DNA from: Monocercomonoides exilis PA203
Taxonomy: Eukaryota; Protista; Preaxostyla
NCBI GenBank assembly: GCA_001643675.2
Contig: LSRY02000012.1
Coordinates: 992,001-1,056,000, forward strand
Length of the DNA stretch: 64,000 nucleotides
Direction: 5' to 3'
The position numbers and the translations under genes are program-made. Shown here one piece after another: positions 1-60,701 of this stretch. How positions within the stretch are numbered: the first letter of the stretch is position 1; every line of letters starts with the position of its first letter. The notes beneath the pieces were generated by a model. That model did no database searches and was not told where the DNA came from. It saw nothing but the letters and a program-made list of their open reading frames with translations.

Positions 1-215
1 TGTATTATGTGTATTTATGTCCAAAATTGTAAAAACAAGTGAAAAAAGTGTGTTTGTGCAGAATTTCCAAAAATAAAAAATTTGACCCTTAATTAATTAA
101 TGGAAAAATTAATTTTTATTTTTTTCTGTGATAAGTCACATCGCTTATAATCACAATCGGATATAGTCACAAAAAGTCGTGCAAAAACCGATGTGATTAT
201 ATCCGGTTTTGACTG
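1..215 (-). mobile_element. Partial mirror copy of the pogo-type MITE at 1155-1604 (inside the palindrome arm)
   Basis: TIR cgatgtgattatatccggttttgactg at 189-215, followed by TA at 216-217. Confidence 0.8.
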
Positions 216-1369
216 TATCATTGATATAATAACATTATGTTGTGTGACATCACATGTATTTCAAAAAATAAACCCATTTTTTTCAAATTTTTTGATCACA
301 AAAAGATCATCTCAGATGCATAATTTTTCAGTGAAAATGCCTGAAGTCTAATATTTTGTCCCATATGAAAATGAAAAGGATTTTAATATGAGAAGTGGAA
401 CTTGAAGTGGAAAACACATTTTTTTGTCCTGTTTATTTACAAAATGCAAGATTTTGACACTCGTTTGACGAACTTATTCAGAAAAAAACAGTTTGTTCCC
501 TTGAAAATAATAAACAACAATCTTTTGTTCATATAAAAAATTATTGCAACCAAGAAAATGGTAATTTTTTCCGAAAATAATTGGCTGATCCTTTTTGAAA
601 TCTAACTTTCGTTCGAGTTTTGATCAAATTTTTTTTCTCAATGGGATTTAGAAAAAAAATTGTTTCTGCAATAACTGCATCATAAATAATAAGTATTTTC
701 AATTCAAACTCAATTTTTCAAAATCCCATTGAGAAAAAAAATTTGATCAAAACTCGAACGAAAGTTAGATTTCAAAAAGGATCAGCCAATTATTTTCGGA
801 AAAAATTACCATTTTCTTGGTTGCAATAATTTTTTATATGAACAAAAGATTGTTGTTTATTATTTTCAAGGGAACAAACTGTTTTTTTCTGAATAAGTTC
901 GTCAAACGAGTGTCAAAATCTTGCATTTTGTAAATAAACAGGACAAAAAAATGTGTTTTCCACTTCAAGTTCCACTTCTCATATTAAAATCCTTTTCATT
1001 TTCATATGGGACAAAATATTAGACTTCAGGCATTTTCACTGAAAAATTATGCATCTGAGATGATCTTTTTGTGATCAAAAAATTTGAAAAAAATGGGTTT
1101 ATTTTTTGAAATACATGTGATGTCACACAACATAATGTTATTATATCAATGATACAGTCAAAACCGGATATAATCACATCGGTTTTTGCACGACTTTTTG
1201 TGACTATATCCGATTGTGATTATAAGCGATGTGACTTATCACAGAAAAAAATAAAAATTAATTTTTCCATTAATTAATTAAGGGTCAAATTTTTTATTTT
1301 TGGAAATTCTGCACAAACACACTTTTTTCACTTGTTTTTACAATTTTGGACATAAATACACATAATACA
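1..1369. repeat. Long perfect inverted repeat (palindrome): arms 1-649 / 721-1369, 71-bp quasi-palindromic spacer; left arm truncated by the window edge
   Basis: Position n pairs with 1370-n at every point checked. Examples: 1-22 tgtattatgtgtatttatgtcc vs 1348-1369 ggacataaatacacataataca; 601-649 vs 721-769. First mismatch is at 650/720. Confidence 0.95.
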
Positions 1370-2045
1370 GACTTATTTGAGCATATTTCTGAAAAATCAA
1401 AAAATAAAAATTTTTGATCAAAAAAACGATTTTTCATTGAAAAAACCACCCATTATAATTAAAAATGTGATTATATATTTTCAGCCCTGTGATTATATTC
1501 GATGAAAAATGAATGAAAAATTAGCTAAAAATGTCGGTGCATGTGAAAATGTGACTTTAAACGAATGTGATTGTATTCGATGTGATTATATCCGGTTTTG
1601 ACTGTATTTGCTTGCAGATATGAAAATCAAATTTATTTTGAAATCTGGTTAAGTTTAAAAATGTTATAAGTTAAACAATTTTTCCATGCTTTATGCATAA
1701 AAAGCTTGAAAGTCCGTATTTTCCCCCATATCGTGATTGTAATTGAAATAACATTTTTTTCTTTCAAAAATTGGGAGATATATTTCTCTTCAGGCATTTT
1801 CATTGAAAAAATTATACACTTTTCGTTGACGTTTTAAGAACAAAAAACACAATAAAAATGAGTTCATTTTTTGACATTCGTGAAATGTCATAATTCTTTA
1901 TGTTTTGATATCGATGATGCCTGTTTCAGGATATGAAAATTAAATTTATTTAATAATCTGAGAAAGCGTAATAAAGTTATAAGTGAAGCAATTTTTCAAT
2001 TTGTTGTACAAAAAAAGCTTTAATGTTCATATTTTCCACCAAATA
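1010..2045 (+). repeat. Diverged tandem repeat of ~312-bp units, interrupted by the MITE
   Basis: cttcaggcattttca at 1024 and 1788 (764 apart = 312 + 452 for MITE plus TSD). gatatgaaaat(c/t)aaatttattt at 1617 and 1930 (313 apart). Confidence 0.75.
1155..1604. mobile_element. Non-autonomous Tc1/mariner-pogo type MITE, 450 bp, 27-bp perfect TIRs, TA target-site duplication
   Basis: TA|CAGTCAAAACCGGATATAATCACATCG (1155-1181) ... CGATGTGATTATATCCGGTTTTGACTG|TA (1578-1604). Subterminal TGTGA(C/T)TATAT repeats are present. Removing the element restores colinearity with the neighbouring repeat unit at about 1900-1940. Confidence 0.9.
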
Positions 2046-2463
2046 ATAGAATTTTAATTAGCTTTAAATATTTATAATGAACACGAATTCCGTGAGAACA
2101 GAAAAGGAGTGAATCGTGTCTTTTATTCAATTTTTTTATTAGCATTTGTGACAATTGCAATTTTTTTTTTCTTTTGGGTGATTCTTTTTGAAATCATAAT
2201 TTTTTTCGGTGTGCTGTTTTTTTCAAAAATTGTTTGCCATTGGGTAAAGATTTTTTCATTCAATTGCTTTAGATATCAGAACTGTTTCAAAAACAAATGT
2301 TTAAGTTGAATTGAAAACGATGGACTTATGAAAATGCCTTTTAACTTTTCGGTGTTAATTTGCAAATATTCAAGGAAATTTTTGGATCCGAAAATTGTGA
2401 ATGTTCAAATATATTTTCAAAAAAAATCACCCATATATTTTCAAAAAAAATCACCCATATATA

Positions 2464-2518
2464 TGTCAAATTTTCTTTGAAAAGTTCCTTTCGTTTCATT
2501 TTCAAAAAAATTTTGACA
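2464..2518. mobile_element. 55-bp internally deleted derivative of the 244-bp foldback element
   Basis: TA|TGTCAAATTTTCTTTGAAAAGTTCCTTTCGTTTCATTTTCAAAAAAATTTTGACA|TA. The left 40 nt align with TGTCTCAATTTTTTTGAAAAGTTCCTTTTGTTTAATTTTC at 38291. Confidence 0.7.
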
Positions 2519-2856
2519 TATATATATTTGGTTTCGATTTAATCGACTATCGCAAAATTTTTTTTCAAAGAAAATTAATTAGAAGTAATTTTTCAAAAAA
2601 AAAACTTTCCCAAATGTTAGAAGATACGGCCTGATGAACTCAAATTTTAAGAAAAATTGAAATAATTCTTATTACTGATTCAAATGATTTTCCCTGTTTT
2701 TTCTAATATTGAATTTGAAAAAATACATAGAAAATGGAACCTAATATATTCATCGAGGGCTGAAAACGTCCTCAATGAAGAAGCAATGAATGATGCTACA
2801 CCGAAAATAACATAAACAATTTATATAATACAAATGAAAAATAAAGGATATTTGAG

Positions 2857-2923
2857 AAAAATAAAAATAAAAATAAAAATAAAAATAAAAATAAAAATAA
2901 AAATAAAAATAAAAATAAAAATA

Positions 2924-2952
<29 letters not shown>
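2857..2952 (+). repeat. (AAAAAT)n microsatellite
   Basis: About 16 direct copies. Confidence 0.95.
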
Positions 2953-2954
<2 letters not shown>

Positions 2955-3229
2955 AAAAATTAAACTGAAAAGAATAAATCCGATTTTGCTCACATGTAAT
3001 CACAAATGAGCACAAAAAATAAAATAATAAAACAAAAAGATTAAATATCAGCATCACTGGTTTAACTTATTTTATTTAAAAAAAGAACACAAAAATTACA
3101 AGTAAATAATAATGTATAATTTAATAATTATCTATTATCCTTATTTCCACTATTGCTCTTCCCAATCCTTTATGTGATCACATTTCTTCATGATAAAAAC
3201 AACAGATTCTTAAATTCTATGCAGATCTC

Positions 3230-6200
3230 TTAGTTATGCAGTGACCTTTTTCTCCTCACAATCACAATCGCAATGATCGCAATAGCAGCGACAACAACAA
3301 CAACTACTACAATTGGCACTACAATAGCAACAATCACTCCCGTGTTTGCTTTCTTATCATCATCTGGGACAGGATCATCTTTCGGATCATCATGGTTCTT
3401 CTTCAGATATTTCTCATAAACATCCTCAGGTTCCGAATTCTCGTCAGCTGCTCCCACGACCCACCCTGCATTTGCTTCAGTATAATCCTTCGCAAATTCG
3501 AATGCTCCCTCTTGCTTGCTGAATGCATCAAAATCTGGTGCAACAATGCACAATGATGCTACTGATGAATTATGTGCTGTGTTCGAGTTATCGATATCAA
3601 GATTGTTTGCAAGTGGAAGCAGCAACTGTGCTGTAGCCTTCGACATCTCAACATACATTGCTCCTGCATTCCCAGCTGGCGCTGTGCACGATTTGAATGA
3701 ACATTTGTTTGCTCTTCCCATTTTCACTGATGATGATTCTGATGTCATATTAATAATAATACCGGCAGATGCTCCATTCTCCGACTTTACATCCTTCATA
3801 GTCAGCCCTTCGATATTAACATTTGAAATTGAACCTGTTTCATCCTTGATGCTAATAGTTGCACCATTTATAACACTGACTTTGCTGATATCCACTCCTT
3901 CCAAATCGACATCACTTGCACAACTAATATCAAACAATGATTCTTGGAATTTCACTTCATTCGTATCGTCAGCACAAACAACTGCGCTCATCTTCAGCGC
4001 TCCGGTACTCACTTTCACAAGATGAATATTCGCTTTCTCTTCTCCTGTCACTGGCCGAACAAATCTGCAGTTGCTTATTGCCAACAATTCTGAGTCTGAT
4101 CCTGAAGCTATTAACGAAAATGGTCCTGCTTCACCATTCACAACTGATTCATCAGGATCTTCATTTTTGTTCAATGAAGCCGGGAATTTAAACGCCAAAT
4201 GATTGAACTCAACATTTCGTTTGCACGTGAACAGATCGCTTCCTGATTTAGCATCACAATTGATCTCAACTTCAGTTTCTATTTCAACATCCTCTGATTT
4301 ATCTACACCTTCAATTGTGATTCCTGATTCTTTATCGAATTCAACAGCATCTGCTTCGAGAGCTTCGTTGTTCTTTATAACCTTTATGAAATATCTTTCT
4401 CCGCAATTTGTATTATCAAATAATTTATATGCTTCACTCAGCTTCCCTTTTGGCTCTTCGTATTTCTTTCCTTTTCCTTCTCCTCCTTTCTTCACATATG
4501 CAACCGGAGGATCAAAGTATTTCGCTGTAAAGTCAATATCAACATCATTTTCTCCCTTTGCTGCAACAAACCAATCGTTCTTTTCAAGTGTGTAGTCTGC
4601 TGCAAAACTCTTCTTCATCTCGGCTGCTATTTCTTCATACAACCTTTCGGGTACTTCCAAATATAATCCTGTGTTCCTGACTGACTCACTTTCACCGATT
4701 GTACAATTCTTAAATATCAGCTCCATTGGTAAATCTGTTTCTGGCCATGTTAGCTGATTGGCTTCTGTTATTCCTGTAAGTTTCAAATAAATACCCCCAG
4801 ACTTCCCTTTTACACAGCTGCAATTCTCAAATTCGACATTTTCATATCCATTTACTGTGAATAAGCTGTGTTCGTGGTCACTTTCAAAATCCAATATTCC
4901 ACCTGTAGCATCTTCAGATTTACACTCTGAAAACGTGCATCCATTCATGTACACATCAACGGCATCGCTTTCCCCTGCAATCTTCACAACTGCACTTGTG
5001 CTAGATGCAATCTTCTTCAGTGTTACTGATTCCAATGTTACTCTTAATGCTCCTTTTGACAAGAACGGCGCTACAGAAAATCGAACTTCATCGGTATTGT
5101 CTGCACACTCAACATCGGTAATATTCAATTTGCCTGCACACACTTTAACAAGATGGAATCCAATTGTGATGTCTTGTGGTTCATCATTTGCAAACAAATC
5201 ATTTGAAGTCTCCACTTTTGATTGAGTAAATTTGCAGTGGCTTATGTTCAGCGATGTTGAGTCACTTCCTGCAACAATCAACGCCTTTTCTTCTCCATCG
5301 TTCTTTTTTGACCCACTCACAGTAGTGTCTGCTTTGAATTCAAAATTTAGATACATGAATTCCACAATTTTCTTACATGTGAAGAAATCCTTGTCTATTC
5401 CCACACTGCAACTGATATCAACTCTATCAGTTTCACATTTATTTCCATCACTACCAACACCCATGATCGTAATGTTCTTCTTGTCAAATTCTACTGAATC
5501 AGCTGTAAATGCTGCTTCATCTTTAACAACTTTTATCACGTATATTTCGCTGCTTTTTGGATTGTCAAATATCGTTAATGCTTTCGCAAGGTTACTTGAT
5601 GCTGCATTCAAAGTCCGTCCTTCACCAGTCCCATTATTTTTGGCAAATGCTTGGTGTGGATCAAAATATAATGCAGTAAAATCGATATCTGAATGACTAT
5701 CAGCTCCTTTTGCTGCGATAAACCAGTCATTCTTTTCCATTGTGTATTCCTTCGCAAAGCCATCTTTCATTGCTTTTGCAATATCTCCAATTAACGCTTC
5801 GGGAACTTCCAAATACAATCCTGTGTTTCTTACGGAATCTTCTTCTCCGGCTGTGCATTCTGTGAACACCAAACCGGTTCCTGCTTCTGGCCATGTTAAT
5901 TTAGAGGCATCTGTAATTCCTGTCATTTTAATATACATCCCTCCTGACTTCCCCTTTGCACAAGCACATTTCGAAAATGTTATTGCGCCTGTATTTCCAA
6001 CAGAAATTTTACTTTCAGTTTTATTGCTTTCAAAATATAATACTCCACTTGTTGCCGTTCCAGCTGGTTCTGTAGAACCGCATTCAGCGAATGTGCATTT
6101 GTCGAGTGTCAATACCACTGCGCCCTCAGTTCCACTATCTTCATTATCATGTCTTCCACCTTCATTATTATTTTCATTCCCAACAATCTTCACCACAGCA

Positions 6201-6922
6201 CCTGTGCTCGATACAATCTTCTTCAAATTCAATTCTATCAGTGAAATATCCGTAATAGTTCCCTCTGCTAAAAATGGCGTTGCCGAAAATGTAACTGCAT
6301 CATTGTCATCTGTGCATTCAACATTATTCATTGCTAGTGCTCCTGCGCCAACTTTCACAAGGTGGAAAGCAATAGGACTGTCTTCTGTTCCTTCATTATT
6401 CGTAAACATGTTTCCAGGAATTGTCGCTTTTGGACGAGAAAATTTGCAGTGGCTAATATTCACAGATGTTGATCCTTCCCCAGATGCAATCAATGCTTTT
6501 TCTCCTGCATTTGCGCTTGAACTTGAATCCGCATTTGCTTTGAATTCAAAATTTAGATACATGAATTCCACAATTTTCTCACATGTGAAGAAGTCGTTGT
6601 CTGTTCCCACACTGCAGCTTATACTAACTTCTGTGATCTCACTCCCATCATCATTAACTCCCATGATCGTAATGTTCTTCTTGTTAAATGTGATGACTTC
6701 TGCAATAAATGATGATGTGTCATTGACAACTTTGATCGCGACTGATTCATCTCCATCCGATTTCAGTTTATTGTAAGCAGTTGTCATGCTCTTAATTGCT
6801 TCGCTAGCACTTGTACCGTTTTTGCTATCTTCTCCGGTGAGTTTCACAAACACCTCTGTTAAATCATTCTCTTCAGAATATGTAGATAGCATAACTTGGG
6901 AAAATACGAAAATCAAAAGCAT
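3230..6922 (-). CDS. Type-I membrane surface/adhesin-like protein, 1230 aa, three ~380-400 aa internal repeats (probable beta-helix fold)
   Basis: Single long ORF with an N-terminal hydrophobic signal (MLLIFVFSQVMLSTYS). Repeated motifs: FFTCxKxVEFxxLxFxF, GKSGGxYxK, RNTGLYLEVP, KNDWFxAAKG. C-terminal TM VIVAIVVPIVVVVVVVAAIAIIAIVIV followed by RRKR. Confidence 0.85.
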   Translation of the reverse strand: MLLIFVFSQVMLSTYSEENDLTEVFVKLTGEDSKNGTSASEAIKSMTTAYNKLKSDGDESVAIKVVNDTSSFIAEVITFNKKNITIMGVNDDGSEITEVSISCSVGTDNDFFTCEKIVEFMYLNFEFKANADSSSSANAGEKALIASGEGSTSVNISHCKFSRPKATIPGNMFTNNEGTEDSPIAFHLVKVGAGALAMNNVECTDDNDAVTFSATPFLAEGTITDISLIELNLKKIVSSTGAVVKIVGNENNNEGGRHDNEDSGTEGAVVLTLDKCTFAECGSTEPAGTATSGVLYFESNKTESKISVGNTGAITFSKCACAKGKSGGMYIKMTGITDASKLTWPEAGTGLVFTECTAGEEDSVRNTGLYLEVPEALIGDIAKAMKDGFAKEYTMEKNDWFIAAKGADSHSDIDFTALYFDPHQAFAKNNGTGEGRTLNAASSNLAKALTIFDNPKSSEIYVIKVVKDEAAFTADSVEFDKKNITIMGVGSDGNKCETDRVDISCSVGIDKDFFTCKKIVEFMYLNFEFKADTTVSGSKKNDGEEKALIVAGSDSTSLNISHCKFTQSKVETSNDLFANDEPQDITIGFHLVKVCAGKLNITDVECADNTDEVRFSVAPFLSKGALRVTLESVTLKKIASSTSAVVKIAGESDAVDVYMNGCTFSECKSEDATGGILDFESDHEHSLFTVNGYENVEFENCSCVKGKSGGIYLKLTGITEANQLTWPETDLPMELIFKNCTIGESESVRNTGLYLEVPERLYEEIAAEMKKSFAADYTLEKNDWFVAAKGENDVDIDFTAKYFDPPVAYVKKGGEGKGKKYEEPKGKLSEAYKLFDNTNCGERYFIKVIKNNEALEADAVEFDKESGITIEGVDKSEDVEIETEVEINCDAKSGSDLFTCKRNVEFNHLAFKFPASLNKNEDPDESVVNGEAGPFSLIASGSDSELLAISNCRFVRPVTGEEKANIHLVKVSTGALKMSAVVCADDTNEVKFQESLFDISCASDVDLEGVDISKVSVINGATISIKDETGSISNVNIEGLTMKDVKSENGASAGIIINMTSESSSVKMGRANKCSFKSCTAPAGNAGAMYVEMSKATAQLLLPLANNLDIDNSNTAHNSSVASLCIVAPDFDAFSKQEGAFEFAKDYTEANAGWVVGAADENSEPEDVYEKYLKKNHDDPKDDPVPDDDKKANTGVIVAIVVPIVVVVVVVAAIAIIAIVIVRRKRSLHN

Positions 6923-7463
6923 TTCTGTTTATGTTCTTTTCTCTGCAACTATAAAGATTTACAGTTCCATAATACATGCATTAAAAAAGATGAACTATGG
7001 TTTTTGCAATAATTAGAAATAATATTTCTTCATTTAATAATTTATTCACAAATTCAGCCTTTCGGTCGTCTGTGGTGTTATTTTTTTAAAAGGTTAACTC
7101 GCTTTTTATTTAAATATTTTCGTAATCCATTCAAGCAACGGATATAACCATACTAGTTTGAAAAAGAAAGTTATTCAAACTTTAATAATAGTATAACGCA
7201 ATAGTTTCTGATAATAATAAACAATCATTAATGGAATATGAACATTAATGGATGAGATCCGAATAAATATTTTTTATTTGAATAATCAGACTAAATTTAA
7301 ATAAAGTGCCTTTATTTCAATTAAATACTGTTTATTCAAAATAAAAATCTTTATTCAATTTTTGTCCATTATTCTCGACTTTCAGCAAAATATTCTCCAT
7401 AGAACAAATAGAATCAAAAAAAAACACGATTATATAAATCACTGCTCATCACATTTCAAGTCG

Positions 7464-7614
7464 TCTCTCCTTCTCTCCTTCTCTCCTTCTCTCCTTCTCT
7501 CCTTCTCTCCTTCTCTCCTTCTCTCCTTCTCTCCTTCTCTCCTTCTCTCCTTCTCTCCTTCTCTCCTTCTCTCCTTCTCTCCTTCTCTCCTTCTCTCCTT
7601 CTCTCCTTCTCTCT
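7464..7614 (+). repeat. (CTTCTCTC)n 8-bp microsatellite
   Basis: Direct tandem copies. Confidence 0.95.
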
Positions 7615-13347: not shown

Positions 13348-13378
<31 letters not shown>

Positions 13379-14090: not shown

Positions 14091-14572
14091 TTGTTTGAGT
14101 AGCAGATTGATGAGAAATTGAAAAGTGGATACGATAAAAGAAAATTCAAGTGAAAAAGAAAATATTTTATCGAATTCTGTTGCATATCATGAAAAAGAAA
14201 ATTCATATGCACGTCTTTGTTCTATCTTTTTTAAATATAAAGCTTATTTTTTGTTAACTATAATAATAGTTTTTTTAACATTTGACAACAAATGAGATTT
14301 ATAAAAGTTAAACAAGTGAAATACATAAAACGTTCGTTATTTGAATGATCGTATGAAAGAGGGGAAAAAGAAAGCTTTATTAGATAGATATATCACGACA
14401 TTAATGATATTTGTTTCTCATTTTAAAATGAAAATATTAGGTTGTCATCTTATTTGAATAACTATTTATTCATCATTCCCAACTGAACCAAAAACATTTG
14501 AAAAAAAGAATTGAACAAAAAAAAGATGTTAAAAAATATATAATGGCAAAGTAATGAAATTGAACTTCGGAA

Positions 14573-21692: not shown

Positions 21693-21725
<33 letters not shown>

Positions 21726-23591: not shown

Positions 23592-23628
<37 letters not shown>

Positions 23629-35160: not shown

Positions 35161-35404
35161 TGTCTAAAATTTTTTGAAAAGTTCCTTTTGTTTAATTTTC
35201 AGGTCAAAATGGAAAATGAATATTTTCATCAAAATTTCATTCCAACTCTCAAAAATTCACCATTATGGAAATAATTGCATTAATAAACATTTGCTTCCAT
35301 GCCAGTGAATTTTTGAGAGTTGGAATGAAATTTTGATGAAAATATTCAGTTTCCATTTTTACCTGAAAATCAAACAAAAGGAACTTTTCAAAAAAAAAGA
35401 GACA
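35161..35404. mobile_element. 244-bp foldback/hairpin element, copy 1 (100-bp arms, 44-bp spacer)
   Basis: TGTCT...AGACA ends. Seven substitutions relative to copy 2, with an identical spacer. Confidence 0.9.
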
Positions 35405-35416
35405 TATTATGAAATA

Positions 35417-37762
35417 CCATCGGTGGAAAAAGCGGTCGTTTGTGGGAAAAGCGGTAGTTGGAGGAACTGAAATAATGCAATTTTTCTACCCTGTTATTCT
35501 TTTGATATGGACTGAAGCATTTTGAATTTTGATAATTATTGCTTGTCGAACAGAAATATGAATAAATAAATGAAAAAAAGGTCTTAAACTTTATCATCAA
35601 CAGCCTGTTTTTATATAAAAAAGAAATGTGAATTGGAAAAATAAGAGTAACGCAGTTCAGAAAAATAAATATCTTCATTTGAATCAACTTCAAAATAAAA
35701 ATTGATACATTCAAATTGTTGTGGTTTCAATATCTGAATCGGATTCATCTTCAATTTTTCTCCTTTTTCTTGTTCTTAACTTTGTTTTCTGATCAAAAGT
35801 TAATGTTCACTCCTCTTCGTGAATGCAATTGATTTTGTTTCCGTAAACTTAATTATCAGCAATTCTTTTTTTTCGATGTCTTATTTTTCTTTTCTTCATT
35901 ATCTCCGAACCTTTGTTTTCGTTTTGCTCAGCTTCTTCTTCTACTCCTTTTTCCTCGTTTGCAATTGCTTTTTCGTGTGTTATTTCCGTTTCCTTAATCT
36001 CAATCGCAGGTATTTGTTGACTTTTTTCTTTTAATTGTCGTTTTTATTTTGGAGAAAAAACTCCAAAAACGCTTTTCTTTAGATCTGTTGCGGACAAATT
36101 TGAAGAAGATGATGTTTTTGACGACAAAGCTGTGCCGCATTCTTTGGATAGCACAGGAGCAGCAGCAACAGGATGAACTCCAGTGTTTAAAAATGCAGAT
36201 TTTATAACAGACGGAGAACTTGCAGCAGACAAAGCTTCTGGCAACACATCTGCCAAAGCTCTTCGGAAAGAAGAAGTCGTTAAATTTGTAGGTCTAACAA
36301 ATGAATTTTGAAGAACAAGTATAAATCTTGAGAACACGCAATTGTCACACGGCTGTTAAAGGTGTGTCATATTCTGAGGAAAGGTTTCGATGATGATATT
36401 GTTATGATTAGCAAACGAAATAACCTCCGAATCAAAATGAGTACGGTGATTGTCCAATAATAACAGAGCTTCCTTTGATTAGACATTTTCAGTTTATTCG
36501 CTATCAGCGGAATCCATTTCTGAATCATGATAAATCGAAATGTTTCCGAATTTATCCAACCTAATGAAGAACCAATATAAAATATATTTGAAGATGATAA
36601 AAAAGAAAACTCTTGTGGAATCTTTTTTCGTGTGTATATTTATATATATGGAAGATGAGACCCGTCAGCACAAATGCAAACACATAAAGTCGCATTTTCG
36701 GTTTTTTGTTATGCGGGAGGAGAAGGCGGCGTTTGGTTTTTGAGGCAAACAATAAGCTTTTATGTTCCTTCTCCAATACGAACAGAAGATTCATCAAAGT
36801 TGTATATTTATGTCGAATCAATGTTGTTCGTTGTTATAATGGAAGACAACTTTTGGAACCATTCACGAATTGTTTCTGGTGATTGCGTACGGATTTTTGC
36901 AATTTCAATAGGCCTGGAAATGCATGCCTTTAATATTGAGCTTCTTTTTATGAGATCAAAGGCCTATTTCGAATTGACTTTTTTCCTTTCTTTGTCCCTT
37001 TCACAACTTGTATTTCAAACTTCCTGGATCTAAAAAAACAAAGCTATCAAAAAAATAAAAAGATCAATTCGCAAAACCATCGATTGAATGTACTTCACTC
37101 TGATAATTTTTTGTTCGGACAGCAGTGCGATGACTTGTTTTTCAACTCTTTCCAGTTGTTCACTTGTAATTATTGATGGGCGGCCAATTTTCCACACTTC
37201 CCGATTTGCTTTCATCGCCGCTATTCCTCTTTCCCATACACCGTTTGAAATAGCTTTGGATCCCACAGCAGTTTTCCACGTTGCATCATATTTCTTTTTT
37301 ATTTCGAAGAACTTTTGTGATGGAGATAAATATTTTCGGAAGTCGGATGTAGCCATCAAACGATGAAGAATGTTTGGAGTGATTTTTTTTGTGGCGTCCA
37401 TTATTATTCATTCGATCAAAAACTTTTTTGATAAAGTTTTATTTAAAAAGATCAAAATTTGTTTACAAACAGCTATTCCAGAATAAATCACATTATATTC
37501 AAGTTATTTCTTCTGATTATTCAATTCGATGAAGTATTATTGATAATAGCAGTTTGAACAAACTGCTGTTTAAATTACGAAGGTTCAGAGAACTTTTCTG
37601 TCTTATAACCAAAAGATAAATAAATAATATATCTCGTTGAACTTTCTCAGGTGTGAATGTTCTTATTCTTTTTAATTGAAATGTTTTTTTCCAAAAGACT
37701 CTTCTTTTCAAACTACTAGAACTACCGCTTTTCCCACCAACGACCGCTTTTTCCACCGATAG
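35417..37762 (-). mobile_element. Decayed pogo-like (Tc1/mariner superfamily, DD35D) DNA transposon, ~2.35 kb
   Basis: ~43-bp TIR TA|CCATCGGTGGAAAAAGCGGTCGTTTGTGGGAAAAGCGGTAGTT, with its reverse complement ending at 37762 (two mismatches; right flank is TG). Contains a DDE transposase. Confidence 0.9.
35800..37401 (-). pseudogene. pogo/CENP-B-type (DDE_1) transposase pseudogene with a 48-bp intron (37030-37077); 3' end approximate
   Basis: IYNFDESS ... LLLLDNHRTHF ... FPQNMTHL*QPCDNCVF, with 35 residues between the 2nd and 3rd Asp. Multiple stops and a frameshift. Confidence 0.85.
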
Positions 37763-38290
37763 TGTCTTTCTTTTTAATCAAGATTTTCATAAGGTTTGGC
37801 ATTCGTTTGCAATAGCGTTTCTGTTTTGTATTTATAAAAATATTTTTGTCCTGCTTCAAATCTTGTTCTTTTCCATTCATTTCTTCTTCACTTTTCACGC
37901 ACTGACAGATACCAAAAAAAAACCTTTTAATGTTTATGAATTATGTTAATACTTTTCATACAATATAAATGTTTATTTTTATTGAAATTGGTTGTTATCT
38001 ACACTGTTTTACATGACTTTTTTAAACAATTGTTGAGAATAAAAGTTTGATTGAGGATTGTTTGGAATCATTTCAACATAATGAATGGTATTTAAACAGA
38101 GCATTGTTAATTATTTGCTTTTATATTTTTGAAAAATTGCCTCATTTATTGTGTCCATTCTTCAATCAAAAAATCAAATATATAATGGTTGCTAATTAAC
38201 TGATTATCCCTGTTATAATTTGGCAGCATTTGCTTTTTAAAGTATGAACTTTATGTGAGTCTTCAAATAAAATATATTTCATTCATGATA

Positions 38291-38534
38291 TGTCTCAATT
38301 TTTTTGAAAAGTTCCTTTTGTTTAATTTTCAGGTCAAAATGGAAAATGAATATTTTCATCAAAATTTCATTCCAACTCTCAAAAATTCACCATTATGGAA
38401 ATAATTGCATTAATAAACATTTGCTTCCATGCCAGTGAATTTTTGAGAGTTGGAATGAAATTTTGATGAAAATATTCATTTTCCATTTTGACCTGAAAAT
38501 TAAACAAAAGGAACTTTTCAAAAAAATTGAGACA
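38291..38534. mobile_element. 244-bp foldback/hairpin element, copy 2 (perfect 100-bp arms, flanked by TA)
   Basis: 38291-38390 is the exact reverse complement of 38435-38534. Spacer is cattatggaaataattgcattaataaacatttgcttccatgcca. Confidence 0.92.
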
Positions 38535-38545
38535 TATTATAAGAA

Positions 38546-39870
38546 ATGCTCCAGGAACTGAAGATTTGCACAGTTGATGAGCAGAAACAAAAATTTGAAA
38601 AAGTATTCAGTTTTCTTCCTGAAATAAATGGCAAAGAATTTAAGGCTATTTTTTCAAAAGAAATCTTTGAGGAAATTGAAACAATGATCGAAGAAAATAT
38701 ATTATCGCTCGAAAATTCTTTTTGTTTGCTGAAGAGATTTGGGTGTTGGAAAGTGCAAAAAGAAAAGTTTATTTTTGGTTTTTGTATGTCTTCGTTGAAA
38801 AAAAGATTTGAGAAGATGATCATTGAAGATGAGAAGAAGAAAGAACGAAAAAATGAAAAGATGCTAATTGATCTATGTGTGAAGTTTCGAACGTTTGGAG
38901 TTTACAGAACTTGTCAATTGCCTCCCAACGATTTACATGAAGTCTGTGTTAGTTTCCTTCTGAAAGTTGTTTTAAAGAAAATGAAAAATTCGGATGCACA
39001 AAGTGAAGTTGAAGAAGCATTATTGGCATTGAGTAATATTTGCGAGAATCACGTTTGTAAATTGTCATTTCATTATCTTTATTCAGATTTTGAATAATGT
39101 GTTAAAAAAGACTGTTTGCGAAAAATTGTTCTTGAAGGAGGTTGTTGATATCGTCAAGTATCATCAGGAGCATTACGATTTCACATATCTTGCTTATCAA
39201 TCGATTTGGTATTTTCTTGCAAACAGATGTTGGAGAAGCTCTGAAGTTAAAAATGTGATTGTGAATGATCTGCATTTTGTAGAAGAAGCAATGCGAGTAT
39301 TAGAAGAGCTGGAGAGATTCGTTGAATTGAGTAAAAGCAAAGAGAAAATATTTAGAAAGAAAGAAAAATCGTTTATTTTGAGATGAAACAAGACATTAAA
39401 AGATTGTTGTTCTATTTGTAGCATTTCAAATAGCGACTATGTGAAAATAATAAGAAGCATTGTTAGGTTGTGCAGAGCTGCTCAGGGTTACAATGGAAAG
39501 ATAATAATTGGATACTATTTTGAATTTTTCCATTATTTTTCCCACCCAAAAAACGAAAACGCAGAAGGATTTTTAGAAAGTGGAGCTGTTGATTTTTTTT
39601 TAAAGGAACTTTTGCATCCAACGTTTGACCTTTTTGAAATACACTGTTGTTTTGTTGTCTTTTGGAAACTTTTAGAAAGTCTAAACAAAAGTGTGAATAA
39701 GAAAACAGATTGGGCAAAACTGAAGATTATTAAGAAGAAGTTATATAAAGTACAATAGGAAGAAGGATTTGAAGATTGCATCATTAGTTTCACCGGAGCA
39801 TTTCTTCTTCAAATTTTAGGAATGTCCGTTCTGCTTTAGGATCCCAATAATTTTATTATATGTTACTGAA
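38546..39870 (+). pseudogene. Disrupted member of a lineage-specific multicopy helical-repeat family (Monocercomonoides-type)
   Basis: Motifs EQKQK, SSLKKRFEKMI..E.KK...LIDLC, CVSFLLKVVLKK..EVEEALLALSNI, YHQEH..TYLAYQSIW, EEGFEDCIISF. In-frame TGA (39384) and TAG (39756) fall where W and E are expected. Confidence 0.65.
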
Positions 39871-39872
39871 TA

Positions 39873-42371
39873 CCATTGGTGCCAAAACCGGGACCTTTCG
39901 CGAAACCCTGAACCATTCGCAATCCAGAAATAAAAAATAATCGCAATCAATACCTTTTTCCACTTTCAAAAAAAACATAATACAAATTCAAATAAAAAAT
40001 ACTCGAAGGATAAATGAAATTACATACACACCATTTTCTTGTATTGATATAATATCTCCATGAAAAACGTCATAAAATTTCCTGATATTTCAGAAACATC
40101 AAAGAAATTTTTGACGAAACAAAAACACACAGTGATAAAACAAAAAAGAAATAATATTTCATATGATTTTTCTTGATTTCACTTTGTGTTTTTTCAAAAC
40201 GGATTTTTTATTGCTTCGATCAATTCCATAATGCGTTATGGAAAAAACTCAAACAAATATTTGCAAGTTGCAAAAAGTTATTACAAAATCTTGTTATAGA
40301 AAAATTAAATCTAGATCGCAAAAACTTTTTGAAGCAAAGAAAGAAATTCCAATTTCATGCAGAGAAGCTACGAAAGCGCAATTAATTTCTTAATCATCTT
40401 GGTTCCGTGCAAAAAAAGCAGAAAATAAAGGGCGAATTGTTGGAAGGATCAGTGTGAAACTTGCGATTTCTGATTCAGAATCGGAAATAATAGATAATCA
40501 GGTTTTATCGAAATTATCTGAACATGAAATAGTGGGAGTTTCAGATGTCCAATCAATGGTATTTCTATTTTATTGTTTGAAATTTTATTTATTTTCTTTA
40601 TTTCAGTGCGTTGAGTTGAAGCAAAAAAGAATGGAGAGCGCAAACAAAGAGGTAACCTTTGATTAGAAATATGCTTACAAATTGTTGAAAAGAAGCGAAA
40701 TCATTCACACTGCTGTCGCGAAACCGTTGGAAGCTGCAAAGATTATTGCACAATCACCAGAATCCATTAGAACATGGTTTGCTGATTTGGCTGACTTGGA
40801 TAAAAAGTATAATATCGTTGGATCAGCCATTTTCAATTTTGACGAAACTTCTGTTCGATTTGGACAAGAAGCGTCAAAACTTTTTGTTTGCCTGAAGGAT
40901 CAACTTCCTCCTTCACCTCCAGCTCCACAAAAGGTCTCGAATGCAACAATGTGTTTCTGTGTGTGTGCTGATGGCTCATGTTTGAATCATTATTTGCTCT
41001 GGCCAAACAGGTCGATCCCTGACGAGTTTTCGAATTTTCCTTCATTTTCCATCAAATATCTTTACGCAAGCTCCGGATGGATCACAAACGATTTATTAAC
41101 GACGATTTTTATCAATGATTGGCTGATTCATATCAAAGAGAAAGTGAAGCCAACTCGCTTGAGGAGAGCATTAATTCTGATGGATCATCATGTTACGCAT
41201 TTCTGCCCTGAAGTTATTACAGCTGCAAAAAATTCCCATATAATTATTGAGTATTTCCCTCAGAATATTACTCATTTCCACAACCTTGTTACAGTTGCAT
41301 TTCTTCCATGTTTTAATTTGTGCAAAACAACTTGCTTCATACACCACATCCATTTTCGTTGCGAACATACAGGTTTTCCTTTTCTCGAGTTCTATGAGAT
41401 ATAACAGCAGCAACAGTTCAGCCTTCCACAATTAGAATTGCTTTTTTGAAAACAGGTGTTTGGCCTATAACAGCAACTGAAGTTCTATCACGAGTTTGTG
41501 GATCTGCAAAACAAATCTCTGGAGGGAAGAAAGTTATCAAGTCATCTACGGATCTTCAATCAGAATTGTTCGGAAAATTTTCACCGACAAAGAAAATGGA
41601 TAAAAAAACGAATTTTGATGAAAAATCTGCAATAACACAACCAAGTTGCCTTAAAGACACAAATGACTTACAAAGAGAGCTGGATGTTTTATGCAACCGT
41701 GTTGCACAAATAAAGAAGCAATTGGAAGATGCAACAGGTTCAAAGAATGAAGAGGATGAAAACTTGAACGTGATGAAAAAAGAAAAAGTGACAATTGTGA
41801 AGGAAGAAGATTCAATTTTTGATATGAAGAAATCAGAAAAACGAAGATAGCTGGACATTCTACAAGATGATATGGATGCATTAGAAGTAGATGAATTAAA
41901 AGAATCAATCACCAAAATTTGGGCGAAAGCAAAACGTTTGACAGCTTCAAGGGTGAGATATGTTGGCATGATGACAAGATGCCTATCTCCAATAATCATT
42001 TAAAAAAATAAGAAGGCTCGTGAAAACTGCTTCTTGAAAAAGAAAATGCAAAAACAAAAAGAAGTATAATGAAATGAAAAGAGATTCATCACTAATTCAA
42101 TTATCTGTTGGCAGAATCATAATTGTTGTTTAGAAATGTTTTATGTGTGAAAAAACAATTTATTAGGTTTTCCTCAATCGTTGAATGATTTTCCTATCAT
42201 TTCATCAGTTTTGAAACCGTTTGATAACAAACATGCAATGGCTTTTTAAATTCATTGGTAAACAAAGGAGAATTTCAAATAAAAAATTTCATAAAATGAA
42301 AAATATTATCAATGTTCAGTTTCATAAAAAGTTCCGGATTTCGCGAAAGGTCCCGGTTTTGGCACCAATGG
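39873..42371 (+). mobile_element. Decayed pogo-like DNA transposon, 2499 bp, 33-bp perfect (41-bp imperfect) TIRs, TA TSD
   Basis: TA|CCATTGGTGCCAAAACCGGGACCTTTCGCGAAA ... TTTCGCGAAAGGTCCCGGTTTTGGCACCAATGG|TA. Confidence 0.93.
40238..42003 (+). pseudogene. pogo/CENP-B-type (DDE_1) transposase pseudogene with a 48-bp intron (40559-40606); 3' end approximate
   Basis: IFNFDETS, CVCADGS, SSGWIT, ALILMDHHVTHF, FPQNITH (frameshift) QPCY, FLKTGVWP. Contains stops and frameshifts; the third Asp is replaced. Confidence 0.85.
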
Positions 42372-42987
42372 TATATGAAACAACGCTTATCATCAGCAAA
42401 TCATAATCAATTCCATTATAAATTGAAATTTCTGAAAGAAATAAACAATTGTTAGACCATTTTCCGAAAATGATTGAGGCAACAAAATTATGTGATGCTT
42501 TCTGATACCAAAAAGGATATATGATAGAGCTTCCTTGAAATGGATTAAACAAATATTTTCAAACTCAATAAATTGCATTTCCGATATTTTCATAAAAATG
42601 TATCGTTTCATTTATTCTTTTCTTTCTTTTTTTTCTAAATTTGCATTACGATCCAAATGATTATTTAGTGATTAAAGATAAAAATCATCATCGAAATTAA
42701 AATAAACAAATAATTTACTTGAGCTTTTGCTTGATTTTTACTCCAGATGATATTATTACCAAATATAAAAATTTTTGTGTTATTTTTTGTAAATGAGTCC
42801 GGAGAAAGTCATAAGTCAATTTTCAAGATTGATGCATGTGTGAAACAATTGCTTAAACTCGTGTAAAAGAAAAATTAGTTTTGATCCTGTTTCTTTAAAC
42901 TATGTTGGCGAAATTTAAATTGCATGAACAACAAAAATTTTCTGAAAAGAGAAAAACGATCTTTCTGGCCATAATAAATTGGTTAAA

Positions 42988-44899: not shown

Positions 44900-45136
44900 T
44901 CTGGACTCTGATGAAAACACACTGAGTGCTTCTGTCTTTCTCGCTTCTTTCATCTTCATACATCTTATTGTCTAACATTTGTTCTTATTATAATTGTTAG
45001 TGGTTGCACTTCATCTTTTCATGAGTGAAAAAAACTGTAAAAAGCTAATAAAAATAAAATTAAACAGCGAAATGAGTCGAAAATCTGTTTTGAAGAAATA
45101 AAAATTGATAGAAAGACATGAAAATTGAGAAAGAGA

Positions 45137-47883: not shown

Positions 47884-48152
47884 TTTTTCAACGAACTTAG
47901 ACAAGTTATGGGCTAAAAACAAAAAATTTGATTTCTAATATCATTGATGAGTATCATTAAGGTTTTTTATTTATTAAAAATCAATACACAAATACCTTTA
48001 TTAATATTATCAAATATAAACAAATTAAAATACAACCATATAAAAAGAACACTCGCAAAGCAGCTTAAAGCGTTTGAACATTTTATTTTTTTGTAGTCAA
48101 TGCGCATTCGTTATTTTATTCAATACAGCTCAAAATTTTGATTATTTAGTTT

Positions 48153-52988: not shown

Positions 52989-53235
52989 AGGAAAAAAAAG
53001 AATGCTTTTATTTATTTGTTTTTCAGTTAACTTTATTTTATTTTCATTTTTTTTTTTAATTTTCAGTGTGTGAGATGAAAATGAGAACAAAAAATTAAAA
53101 AATTAAAAAAAGGCGATGGTTGCAAAATAAAATCTATGTGAAATGTAAAAAAATCTTTAAAACACATTTAAATATCATATGAATGAAAGACAGAATAACG
53201 AAATGCTCAATAAAATACAATGCCCTTTGCTTGCA

Positions 53236-57258: not shown

Positions 57259-57636
57259 GGCAAATCAAGAAAACAGACAATTCAACTTTTATTCAAAAGA
57301 AACAAAAATGAAATCAAATCAAAGATTAATATATATATATAAGTTATTAAAGACCCATTTACCAAAATAAAAAAATAGCTTTTAAAATAATAAATTTAAG
57401 AACATGCAAATTATGTTCAATAACCTCTAAAAGTTAATAAAAAACAAACGAAACAAAAAAATCAACTTCAAAAAATTCGTCATTTTCTTTATATTTTTTT
57501 TGTTTAATTTTCATACATTTTTCCAATAAATTCCAACTTTTAACAAAAAAAAATGTTGACAATAAACTGTGATGGGTCATGTTTTTATAGCATATGGGTA
57601 ACAGTTTGATCCTTGAATTGGAAAATTTGCGTTTAA

Positions 57637-58250
57637 ATGTCGGAAACAACTCATTTTCCTTCTCCACCTATTCATCCTCCAAAAAAGAAAATAGAAGAAA
57701 TAAATGAAAAAGAAAAGCTTGCGGCAACATTGAATCAAAAAGAGCAAAAAGATAAAATATCAACAAGAGATTTTGGAACGGCTGAAAGCCCAGAATCAAC
57801 TCTTCCTATAAGATTCAGAGGAGGTATGTTTATTTTTATTATTATTTTAGTCATCTTTTTTTGTTATGCGTAAACGTTTCTTCAATTTTATTTTTGAAGA
57901 CAACCTTAAATATCAGCCAGTGAAACAACATCCTCTTTATCGTACATCAAACTCAGCATATGGTCATAAAGTTCCTGAAGAGAGACACATGCCTTCTAAG
58001 TTTCAATATTTTCTGTTTCTTTTTTGTACGAAAAATAAGTTAATTTATTTATTTAGATACGTACCAAAAGGAACAAGCTTTGTGAAATCATTTACAGGAG
58101 GATTTACTGTATTTCTATTTTTATTATTTCATTCATTATAAATTTTAAAATTGTTTTTTGTATCTCTATTTTGAAATTAACATATTTTAGGCATCTACCG
58201 CTCTTAATACGTCTCAAACGCGTTCTCGTTATGTAGACATTCCTGAATGA
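57637..58250 (+). CDS. Piercer of microtubule wall (PIERCE1/2, FAP182-like) microtubule inner protein, 4 exons
   Basis: LPIRF...QHPLYRTSNSAYG...HMPSK|YVPKGTSF...ALNTS; the YRTSNxxYG signature is present. Confidence 0.8.
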
Positions 58251-58345
58251 ACTTTCAATATATCATTTCAAATATATCACGGATAGTTAATTTTTCAAAA
58301 ATTTTTCAGATATTTTGATCTTCCCAGTATAATATCAAATTATCA

Positions 58346-59017
58346 ATGCTTGTTGGTTTATTTCTTATTCTATTTATTTTACACTTCATTGCATCAACAC
58401 TGAATTTTAATTTTTTATTGTCCATATTTTCCTTTATTTTTTACAAGATCAAATTTCTCCGGAAGCGTTATACGGTTGATGACTTTTGTTTTGAAAATTA
58501 AAAGAATAGGAAATTTTTTATTTTCAATATTTAAGAATTGACAAGAAATATTATTGATCCTGAATATCCTCAAACTCTTGAAGAACTTAGCATTATTTCT
58601 CCAGATTCATTTCACATTGATCTTAAGAAACGTCATGTCACAGTTATATTTACTCCCACTGTTCCTCATTGCTCAATGTGCATGCTTATTGGATTATCAA
58701 TAATTACGCGACTTAGAACTTCTCTTCCAAAGAACATGAAAGTTTGTTTATTTTTTCACTTTTAATAACTTTTGGCAATAATTGAATCGTTTCAAGATAT
58801 TTATCAAACTCACTCCGGGCACACACGAAGATGAAGAAGGAGGTTTATATTTGCTTTTTCTTTTTTCTTTTTTTCAAGTAGTTCAGTTAACAAGCAATTG
58901 TGCGATAAAGAACGTGTTGCTGCTGCCATGGAAAACCCACGATTAGCAGCAGTTGTTTATAAGTGCATTGATGGAAAAGCTAAGCAAGATTCAGCGACTT
59001 CTGGAAAAGCAACGTGA
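58346..59017 (+). CDS. CIA2: Cytosolic Fe-S cluster assembly targeting factor CIA2 (FAM96/MIP18), multi-exon
   Basis: IIDPEYPQTLEEL, FTPTVPHCSMCMLIGL, PGTH, VNKQLCDKERVAAAMENP. Confidence 0.93.
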
Positions 59018-59185
59018 ACATTTTGTAATCATTAAAAATACACTTTTAATCATTTCATTAAGAATCCTTGGAATAAAAAGGAAAAACACTCATTTTAATC
59101 CAAAACATCAATATAATGTTGGCTTCTTACAAAAATTAATGTAAAAAAATGCTTATTTGATTTATAAATACTAAATCCAGAGTTT

Positions 59186-59907
59186 TCACTCTGTTCCAAA
59201 ATATCTATCTCCAAAGTCCCCAATTCCTGGAACTATGTATTTTTTTTCATTGAGGCCCTCATCAAGTGCAACGGAAACTATTTTGATCTTTGGATATGCA
59301 GAAAGAACGGCTTTCACTCCTTCGGGAACAGCAACCATATTCAAAAACAAAATGTTTTGTTCCAGAACTCCATTTTTCAACAATTCTCCGATAGCACATA
59401 TTGCAGATCCACCTGTAGCAAGCATGGGGTCAAGCAAAAGAACATTTCTGTGGGATATATCCTTTGGAATTTTGGTGTAAAAATGTTGGCAGGTCCCAGA
59501 ACCATCTTCCTTTCTCTGAATGAGTATCTTACCAATTCGAACATGTGGCAACACTTGTCGCAATGCATTTTCCATACTTTCTCCTGCTCGAATAATGGAA
59601 ACTCCGCAAAGTTTTGTTCCAAACTCTAGACCCTGAATGAACAAAAATCTATGTTTCAAAAAAAAGATCGATTGAATATTTAACAAACATCAACAGGAAC
59701 TTCCGTAGGTGTAATGATTGCTTTTTTGGAAAATGGAAGATAAGCAAGACCTTCTTCCATAAGAATACGAAAAAGACGATCAGAATAAAACACAAAATCT
59801 GATCGCTGAGTAGTACGATCGCGTAGGATTGTCATAAGAGCAATTATTTGAGGTGTTTGTGGAACCAATGAAAACTGTGGAAAATCTAAGAGTGGATGAG
59901 ATTCCAT
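59186..59907 (-). CDS. UPRT: Uracil phosphoribosyltransferase, one intron
   Basis: TILRD...DFVFYSDRL, CGVSIIRAGESME, RIGKILIQR, LLDPMLATGGSA, YIVPGIGDFGDRYFGT. Confidence 0.96.
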
Positions 59908-60187
59908 CAAAATGTATTAAAAATATAAAACAAAAATATAAATGTTTATTATGCAGTTGATCCCAATTGATCTTTTTTCGTTAAAAATATGCAGAAATTA
60001 GCTTTGGAAAAATATATCTCATTTCTTTTTAATGTTTATTATAAAAAAGCAATTGAATTATTAAATAAATATTATTATTTTTCTATTTATATTTTGAATA
60101 ACAAAATATTCATAATTTTTCGATTGTGATTAATTTTAATAAAGATCCAATTGCTAATTTTCAAATAGAATTATTCAATTAAAATAA

Positions 60188-60701
60188 GTTCAAATTGGCA
60201 GATCCTTTTTGAAACCAAACTTTTGTTCGAGTTATGATGAAAATTATTACAGTTTGTGCAAAAAATACAGGACAATGCAAAAAATTCTTAACAACATCAA
60301 TATCTCAATCACCGCAAGAGGAATAATTCTGTTAATTTTCCTTAAAATATATCTCATTAATACAAACTCCTTTGATATTCAAAACTTTCAAAATGGCTTC
60401 ATTTGTGCTCAGAAAAAATTGTTATTTAATTCTCGGAGAAATAGAATTTTGAGTTTCTCCTTGTTTTTTATTTTAATTTTTTCCGAGCACAAATGAAGCT
60501 ATTTTGAAAGTCTCTTTTATCAAATGAGTTTGTATTGGTGAGGTATATTAAGAGGAAAATTGTCAGAATTATTCCTCTTGCAGTTATTGTGAAATCGATC
60601 TTGTCCGGTATTTTGTGCGATTTCCGGTATTTCATGCGATATCTGTATCTAATTGATTGGGAATTGCCTGGTTGGCTGACAAAAGTCCTTTCAAATTGAA
60701 C
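60188..60701. repeat. Diverged ~510-bp foldback element (symmetry centre about 60447); outer boundaries approximate
   Basis: 60314-60420 and 60475-60581 are imperfect reverse complements (gcaagaggaataattctg ... cttcatttgtgctc). The inner stem ggagaaa/tttctcc shares the same axis. Confidence 0.85.

What the first reader, a model, noticed from the sequence alone, without database searches (positions are those of the whole stretch)
1..60701. A family of non-coding foldback (hairpin) elements at several size scales, sharing ends, arm sequence and an asymmetric core motif
Seen directly: (a) palindrome 1-1369 with spacer core caATAACTGCATcataaa; (b,c) 244-bp hairpins at 35161 and 38291 with spacer core aaATAATTGCATtaataaa and TGTC..GACA ends; (d) a 55-bp collapsed copy at 2464; (e) a diverged hairpin at 60188-60701. 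In (e), segment 60194-60245 (aattggcagatcctttttgaaaccaaacttttgttcgagttatgat) aligns closely with 579-630 of palindrome (a). Its right end, read on the minus strand (tgttcaatttgaaaggacttttg), resembles the 244-bp terminus. It also carries caataactgca on the minus strand near 60580. The spacers of (a)-(c) are imperfectly self-complementary. The ends do not match any pogo TIR in this window. Inference: one uncharacterised foldback family with a conserved, possibly nicked or protein-bound, loop motif. It could be a MITE of an unidentified transposase or a hairpin-replication/resolution-type element.
Basis: partly seen in the sequence, partly recalled or inferred. Interest (0 to 1): 0.75.

Follow-up and report, generated by a model that had tools for sequence, protein, structure and literature searches.

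The report
Ordinary miniature transposons, likely Sola type
These hairpins in the gut flagellate Monocercomonoides exilis are copies of abundant miniature jumping elements that duplicate four target bases on insertion, likely moved by a Sola-type transposase; the supposed loop motif is not conserved and the big palindrome is a mirror image of several stacked elements, likely an assembly artefact, so the finding is largely ordinary.

Summary
The hairpins are real, but they are MITEs, not a hairpin-replication system. The host is Monocercomonoides exilis. Elements b, c, d, the centre of (a), the left end of e and a new copy f share a G-started terminus with TTTTGAAA at positions 11-18. Two published filled-versus-empty alignments show the duplication directly (ACCT, ATTT). 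Read-contig depth on the terminal 40 bp is 500-1,700 times the flanks, on the centres 2-35 times. The AATAAYTGCA core is not conserved: about 90% of depth from relatives of (a) reads AA for TG, and the a-versus-c match is at chance level. Palindrome (a) is not one element: it mirrors three nested MITEs plus low-copy DNA, is cut by the window edge inside one of them, and is more likely an assembly foldback than a real duplication. A Sola1 partner is inferred from target and terminus; no partner transposase was found. New member of a known kind; low interest.

The parts
38292..38533 (.). MITE c, 242 bp, G..C ends, 99-bp perfect arms, ATAT duplicated on both sides
   Evidence: loose ends of other copies break at 38288 and 38537
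35162..35403 (.). MITE b, near-identical sister of c (7 differences in 242 bp), flanks ACAT/ATAT; 11-12 bp from a pogo-like TIR
2465..2517 (.). MITE d, 53-bp internally deleted copy (41-bp left end plus about 20 bp of right end) in an AT run
583..787 (.). MITE A, 205 bp, centre of palindrome (a); GGCTGATCC ends, AATT on both sides, 74-bp arms with one mismatch
   Evidence: loose ends at 788 in 69, 67, 19 and 20 contigs of the four runs
2176..2456 (.).
60197..60248 (+). A-type left terminus of e after AATT (33 of 38 bases as in A); no matching right terminus found
60248..60647 (.). Decayed hairpin of e, 76% arms, 12-nt loop; AATAACTGCA lies in the right arm (60579-60588, minus), its mirror reads AATCACCGCA
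   Evidence: copy number not measured
1..1369 (.). Palindrome (a): 656-bp arms mirrored around MITE A, made of low-copy DNA, part of MITE B1 and part of MITE C; left arm cut by the window edge
792..1003 (.). Low-copy DNA inside the right arm of (a) (mirror 367-578); the only stretch that tests whether the palindrome is doubled in the genome
   Evidence: X1 depth 145 against 102 single-copy; X2 exact contig 31.9 against 36.2, plus a variant contig at 27.2
1008..1727 (.). MITE B1, G-ended, ATAT duplicated on both sides, interrupted by MITE C
   Evidence: loose ends at 1004 and joints 1153 to 1607/1615; aligns with B2 on both sides of C
1155..1604 (.). MITE C, 450 bp, 27-bp perfect TIR starting CAGT, TA duplicated: Tc1/pogo type, a different superfamily
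   Evidence: another TA|CAGT copy in PMC8101967 supplement
1773..2040 (.). MITE B2, 268 bp, older uninterrupted relative of B1 (74-77%), flanks AATT/AAAT

Best explanation
The hairpins are non-coding MITEs of Monocercomonoides exilis with G..C ends and 4-bp A-N-N-T target duplications, likely cut out and pasted in trans by a Sola1-type DDD transposase that would bind the shared terminal 40 bp, while palindrome (a) is a mirror duplication of several nested MITEs and likely an assembly foldback. Shown: ends, target duplication, shared terminal box, high depth on the ends, mosaic build of (a), variability of the core. Inferred: the transposase binds the terminal repeat with the TTTTGAAA box, excises the element and joins it across a 4-bp staggered cut at an AT-rich site; sizes differ by internal deletion (d) and by inward extension of the arms (b, c); the asymmetric centre is leftover interior inherited from a common ancestor and drifts. 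My odds: cut-and-paste MITE with 4-bp duplication 0.93; Sola as mover 0.7, Sola1 0.6; (a) an assembly or read foldback 0.55.
For: Empty sites: in two Merlin alignments of PMC8101967 (S3 Appendix) one row carries a roughly 240-bp insertion with this terminus; 7 empty rows show ACCT once and the filled row twice; 3 empty rows show ATTT once and the filled row twice. Of 6 published copies seen with both flanks, 5 have clean 4-bp direct repeats (ACCT, ATTT, AAGT, ATAT, ATAT) and 1 is ambiguous. In the window B1, c and d have 4 of 4, b and B2 3 of 4, f 2 of 4; 12 of 14 independent flanks are AWWT against a background of 0.09. Loose ends of other copies break at the same boundaries. TTTTGAAA stands at position 11 behind 10 of 1,210 AWWT|G anchors, 9 of them element ends, against 0-4 at 27 other offsets. 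Insect Sola1 MITEs have AWWT/AWDT targets, a G start and the same box at 11-18 (PMC3845634 table 1); Sola has 4-bp duplications and variable ends (PMC10741241). Depth in X1: about 102 on flanks, 61,000-175,000 on the terminal 40 bp of c, 341 on its centre.
Against: No partner transposase was found: a Sola1 profile has no hit in the window (best E 0.22) and the genome could not be searched. Apart from G and the box, the insect Sola1 TIR matches these ends no better than background (12-15 of 38), and Repbase's rule of 10 of the first 11 bases is not met against it. ACCT is outside AWWT/AWDT. B-type ends lack the box. GGG-started copies would also fit Sola2 (recalled GRG rule). Contig depth is not a copy number. 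All four runs are one sample and may be the source of the window. The centre is not random: f keeps AACTG at the same place and one published copy reads GGAAATAATTACATT, so the motif is homologous by descent. For (a), X1 depth of 145 lies between one and two copies.
Confidence: 0.75

Rival explanations
1. Same MITEs, but moved by another DDE enzyme with a 4-bp A-N-N-T target: Sola2 or an undescribed oxymonad lineage.
For: No Sola1 transposase was located; match to the one Sola1 TIR tested is limited to G and an 8-bp box; ACCT target; the commonest published copies start GGG, which fits the recalled Sola2 GRG start.
Against: A, e and b/c/d start GGC or GTC, not GRG; AWWT preference is called the hallmark of Sola1 (PMC3845634); Merlin (8 bp), ISL2EU (AT), Pangu (ANT), Spy (none), Tc1 (TA), IS481EU (TNT ends) do not fit the flanks.
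Confidence: 0.25
2. Palindrome (a) is a real, young inverted duplication: a break beside MITE A let its hairpin prime synthesis and copy the flank (short-inverted-repeat route to palindromes, recalled from yeast and Tetrahymena work).
For: It is centred exactly on a hairpin MITE and keeps its 57-nt asymmetric centre and one private mismatch at 650; X1 depth on the low-copy part is 145 against 102.
Against: In X2 the exact contig has single-copy depth (31.9 against 36.2) and the second copy is a variant with indels; X4 holds only a variant (14 changes, 2 gaps in 249 bases) that departs from the window at the B1 site. The arm runs to the very edge of the window. Foldback reads are 1-4% of genomic long reads (PMC12870357).
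Confidence: 0.35
3. One reading: a hairpin-replicating or hairpin-resolving element whose conserved loop motif is nicked by an HUH enzyme or a telomere resolvase.
For: Spacers fold imperfectly; motif count 6 against 0.63; motif lies 12-15 bp left of the centre in both A and c.
Against: 4-bp target duplications at empty sites; TG is AA in 20 X1 contigs, 2,241 of 2,479 depth, and likewise in the other three runs; depth falls 200-500-fold from ends to centre in c; d lacks a centre; no HUH, Rep or recombinase domain among the 99 window ORFs scanned.
Confidence: 0.03
4. Tc1/mariner/pogo MITEs with TA duplication and TGTC..GACA ends.
For: c and d read TA|TGTC..GACA|TA; two pogo-like elements and a true TA-type MITE (C) are in the window.
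Against: A, e and B2 follow AATT, b follows ACAT, published copies duplicate ACCT, ATTT and AAGT; no TIR match to the pogo elements.
Confidence: 0.02

Closest known systems
Sola1 MITEs (Sola1_NA of Bombyx mori and Rhodnius prolixus; PMC3845634, passages and section 11 read)
   Same: 200-700 bp non-coding elements, G start, 4-bp AWWT/AWDT duplication, TTTTGAAA at TIR positions 11-18, TIR about 30-40 bp
   Different: No other TIR identity (12-15 of 38, background level); targets include ACCT; some subfamilies have arms of 70-100 bp; no partner transposase found; host is an oxymonad
Merlin elements of Monocercomonoides (PMC8101967, passages, part 1 of section 11, parts of S3 Appendix read)
   Same: Same host, G-started TIR elements
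   Different: 8-bp duplication and 23-29-bp TIRs; the MITEs here are inserted into Merlin copies and duplicate 4 bp
pogo/Tc1-mariner MITEs (pogo_NA, PMC3845634 table 1)
   Same: Fits element C only: TA duplication, CAGT start
   Different: Does not fit A, B, b, c, d, e or f
Long-read foldback artefact (PMC12870357, abstract and Background read)
   Same: Near-perfect inverted copy of one stretch, here running to the edge of the sequence
   Different: Not shown for this locus; raw reads could not be examined

Membership tests
MITE (non-autonomous TIR transposon) | Terminal inverted repeats | tested here: met
MITE (non-autonomous TIR transposon) | Target-site duplication, shown at empty sites | tested here: met
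   published copies of the same terminus type; window copies, flanks only
MITE (non-autonomous TIR transposon) | Small, AT-rich, no transposase | tested here: met
   53-281 bp; no Pfam family in the ORFs over them
MITE (non-autonomous TIR transposon) | High copy number | tested here: met
   696 X1 contigs laid on c and depth 600-1,700 times flanks on its ends; order of magnitude only
Sola1 | 4-bp duplication with AWWT/AWDT preference | tested here: met
   12 of 14 window flanks AWWT; published pairs ATAT, ATAT, ATTT, AAGT fit, ACCT does not
Sola1 | Autonomous partner with a Sola1 DDD transposase and the same ends | not testable with these tools
   no genome held; none in the window; one search gives no organism names
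Sola1 | Repbase rule: first 11 bases match a classified element with at most 1 mismatch | tested here: not met
   tested only against the one insect Sola1 TIR at hand; Repbase itself could not be searched, so membership stays 'likely', not filed
Sola2 | GRG..CYC ends (recalled) with 4-bp duplication | tested here: inconclusive
   GGG-started copies fit; GGC (A, e) and GTC (b, c, d) do not
Merlin | 8-bp duplication | tested here: not met
   B1 1 of 8, c 0 of 8, b 1 of 8; empty sites give 4 bp
Tc1/mariner/pogo | TA duplication | tested here: not met
   not met for A, B, b/c/d type, e, f; met for element C
PHIS (ISL2EU, Pangu, Spy) | AT, ANT or no duplication | tested here: not met
   ACCT, ATTT and AAGT duplicated in full
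IS481EU / Ginger | TNT/TGT ends with 4-bp duplication outside them | tested here: not met
   outside TGT..ACA, c has GATA/TATT and b CACA/TATT; empty sites put the T inside the duplication
HUH / hairpin-resolution elements | Invariant nick motif in a loop; no 4-bp duplication; Rep or resolvase gene (established knowledge, recalled) | tested here: not met

The most novel reading that the evidence does not exclude
The G-ended MITEs, with thousands of ends in at least three lineages, are moved by an undescribed oxymonad transposase lineage with A-N-N-T targets rather than by Sola, and their long perfect hairpins seed real foldback duplications such as (a), making them a driver of palindromes in the genome of the eukaryote without mitochondria.
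Probability: 0.1. Interest if true: 0.5.

Novelty: new member of a known kind. Interest (0 to 1): 0.2.

Why it matters
Modestly. About 35% of the published M. exilis assembly is unclassified repeat (PMC8767320); these MITE families with defined ends and targets would classify part of it, and a Sola1 partner would extend Sola to oxymonads (no such report in the held library; Repbase and Dfam not searchable). It also flags a possible false palindrome at the edge of this sequence. It does not point to a new replication or resolution mechanism.

Tried and rejected
Whole-genome search: no genome held. Exact b/c/d TIR pattern in metagenome and viral contigs: 0 hits each. No RNA holder listed; no statement on expression. 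Pfam on 12 plus 87 window ORFs: only a pogo DDE_1 fragment and host genes, no HUH, recombinase or Sola domain. Sola1 profile built from 7 proteins: no window hit; the library search returned 21,724 proteins without organism names, so it says nothing on the host; the Atlas look-up only tied the profile to DUF7869 in animals. Bao et al. 2009 (Sola) is not held: what I say of it is second-hand or recalled. Supplements of PMC8767320 (4 files) and PMC8516963 (10 files, 1 more unreadable) hold no repeat classification by the words searched. Earlier scan notes on this genome or sequence: none. Whole-length A-versus-c alignment: 14 of 500 mirrored shuffles reach it, and interiors alone 60 of 200, so only the ends carry the kinship. 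A interior versus e interior: 20 of 200 and 4 of 200, weak. Flip/flop of spacers cannot be defined, because the arms are symmetric; b and c have the same orientation.
Full report
Host and setting. A window protein is 99% identical to a uracil phosphoribosyltransferase named Monocercomonoides exilis. No whole genome was held, so outside evidence came from contigs of four public DNA runs of one sample and from M. exilis sequence printed in the supplement of a paper on Merlin transposons (PMC8101967). The published genome has 46% repeats, 35% unclassified (PMC8767320, passages).

The observation. Arms of (a) differ at one base of 656; b and c differ at 7 of 242 bases and have identical centres; c has 99-bp perfect arms. 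Segment 60193-60248 matches 579-634 (E 4e-13). The claimed likeness of the right end of e to the 244-bp terminus is at chance level (25 of 200 shuffles). AATAAYTGCA occurs 6 times against 0.63 expected (0.92 with local shuffles), but it was defined from these elements, b and c count once, two matches lie in no hairpin, and in e it is in an arm. The best match between the spacers of a and c is reached by 34 of 300 shuffles with one mismatch and 41 of 300 with three.

What other copies say about b, c, d. Laid at 80% on 38150-38680, run X1 gave about 102 depth on the flanks, 61,000 and up to 175,000 on the terminal 40 bp, 2,600-4,600 on the inner arms and 341 on the centre; the other three runs show the same shape. 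The tool warns that contig depth is no copy number, so I take only the order of magnitude: very many ends, tens of such arms, two to four such centres. Most copies leave the b/c sequence at 38331 into another interior. Loose ends break mostly at 38288 and 38537, just outside ATAT on each side; where they break at 38290, the loose part ends in AA, giving AAAT. So the family is defined by its ends, not by its centre, and b and c, 3.1 kb apart with different flanks, are probably a local hop (inferred).

The true ends and the target. In the supplement (file 4; long runs are cut to their first few hundred letters, so this is a small sample) I saw copies with the same terminus type, about 30 of 40 bases shared with c by hand count, continuing into the commonest interior. 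Two sit inside Merlin elements and give empty sites: 7 of 8 rows read ACCT once and the filled row has ACCT|GGGTG..CACCC|ACCT; 3 of 4 rows read ATTT once and the filled row has ATTT on both sides. Of 6 copies seen with both flanks, 5 have clean 4-bp direct repeats (ACCT, ATTT, AAGT, ATAT, ATAT) and 1 is ambiguous; single ends show ATAT, AAAT, ATTT and ATGT. This fixes the register as A-N-N-T|G and excludes TA, AT, 3-bp and 8-bp duplications. In the window, 12 of 14 independent flanks are AWWT (background 0.09); the boundaries of A, B1 and c are backed independently by loose ends, those of B2, f and e were set by alignment.

Kinship of the ends. In this register the centre of (a) (MITE A, 583-787) shares 25 of 38 terminal bases with b, c and d and 33 of 38 with the left end of e; no other of 1,210 AWWT|G anchors exceeds 21 against A. 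TTTTGAAA stands at positions 11-18 behind 10 anchors, 9 of them element ends, against 0-4 at other offsets. This also revealed f (2176-2456). Interiors alone are not significantly alike (60 of 200).

The core motif. Among relatives of A, bases 676-677 read AA instead of TG in 20 contigs (2,241 of 2,479 depth) in X1, 21-22 contigs in X2, 8 in X3 and 7-8 in X4. In the supplement AATAACTGCA has 0 hits; AATAATTGCA has 6, none shown in a MITE (hits 4-6 seen; hits 1-3 lie earlier in the file than hit 4, ahead of the M. exilis records). Against a flat dismissal: f keeps AACTG at the same place, one published copy reads GGAAATAATTACATT and several read GAAATAGCATT. The centre is therefore homologous by descent but free to change, which is what leftover interior does and a nick site does not.

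Palindrome (a). Laid on 610-1700, the contigs split the right arm into MITE A (loose ends at 788), low-copy DNA (792-1003), MITE B1 (loose ends at 1004, joints from 1153 to 1607-1615) and MITE C (1155-1604, TA, CAGT ends) inserted in B1 (alignments). Position 1369, the mirror of position 1, is base 215 of C's 450, so the palindrome has no element ends and its left extent is hidden by the window edge. The nested MITEs are 74-85% like their relatives while the arms are 99.85% alike, so the mirror is far younger than the insertions. On the low-copy part X2 has an exact contig at single-copy depth (31.9 against 36.2) and a variant at 27.2; X4 has only a variant, which leaves the window sequence at the B1 site; X3 has an exact contig; X1 has one exact contig at 145 against 102, which is ambiguous. 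This fits one exact and one diverged copy better than two identical arms. If the window comes from a long-read assembly, a foldback read centred on the hairpin is the simplest cause (PMC12870357, abstract and Background). I put 0.55 on that, 0.35 on a real young duplication and 0.10 on an older real palindrome whose arms were evened out in polishing. No listed contig bridges the centre of (a), and the lists are cut.

Mechanism. Shown: TIRs, 4-bp duplication, abundance of ends, no coding capacity. Inferred from established cut-and-paste chemistry: a DDE/D transposase supplied in trans binds the terminal repeat, excises the element and integrates it across a 4-bp stagger. Deletion gives d; arm extension by template switching in the hairpin would give the long arms of b and c (inferred, untested).

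Comparison with known families. Sola has 4-bp duplications and variable ends (PMC10741241, passage); AWWT/AWDT is called the hallmark of Sola1, and the insect Sola1 MITE has a G start and TTTTGAAA at 11-18 (PMC3845634, section 11). That makes Sola1 the best candidate, but the rest of that TIR matches at background level, Repbase's 11-base rule (PMC4455052, passage) is not met against it, and no partner was found. The original Sola paper was not held; the Sola2 GRG rule is recalled. Merlin, PHIS groups (PMC4482050, passages), IS481EU (PMC10045372, passages) and Tc1/pogo fail on the duplication. So the elements work like Sola1 MITEs and are likely, not provenly, members.

Novelty. Searches for Monocercomonoides with transposable elements and repeats (4 listings), Sola (2 listings unrelated by title) and 'miniature inverted' found no description; Repbase and Dfam could not be searched and may hold these families. 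Verdict: new members of a known kind, interest 0.2.

Noticed in passing
window 35416-37763 and 39870-42374: Two decayed pogo-like elements with different 41-44-bp TIRs starting CC after TA; the second holds a DDE_1 fragment at 40667-41401 (E 1.8e-06).
   Followed up: partly
window 1004-2525: A pile of at least five MITEs of three types (B1, C, B2, f, d) within 1.5 kb, nested or abutting, next to an (AAAAT)n run at 2860-2950.
   Followed up: yes
window 789-1005: A second, diverged copy of this low-copy stretch exists in runs X2 and X4 and departs from the window at the B1 insertion site: possibly an empty site or the true left arm of (a).
   Followed up: partly
window 38291-38534 and 38543-39758: MITE c ends 9 bp before a broken multi-frame ORF of an oxymonad repeat-like protein type (type recalled, no Pfam family).
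   Followed up: no
window 60197-60700: Element e fills most of the gap between the UPRT gene (59186-59916, minus) and a poly(A)-rich run at 60702-60781.
   Followed up: no
window 3230-6928: 1,232-aa predicted membrane-anchored surface protein with three internal repeats and no Pfam family above cut-off.
   Followed up: no
window 58535-58762 and 57851-58138: Fragments matching FeS_assembly_P (E 4.6e-06) and PIRC1_2 (E 7.6e-07); the first may be the cytosolic Fe-S assembly protein CIA2 (name recalled).
   Followed up: no
L001 2378-4150: Decayed insect-type Sola1 element in a metagenome contig, ATAT|GGACC end with transposase fragments; used only as a seed.
   Followed up: partly
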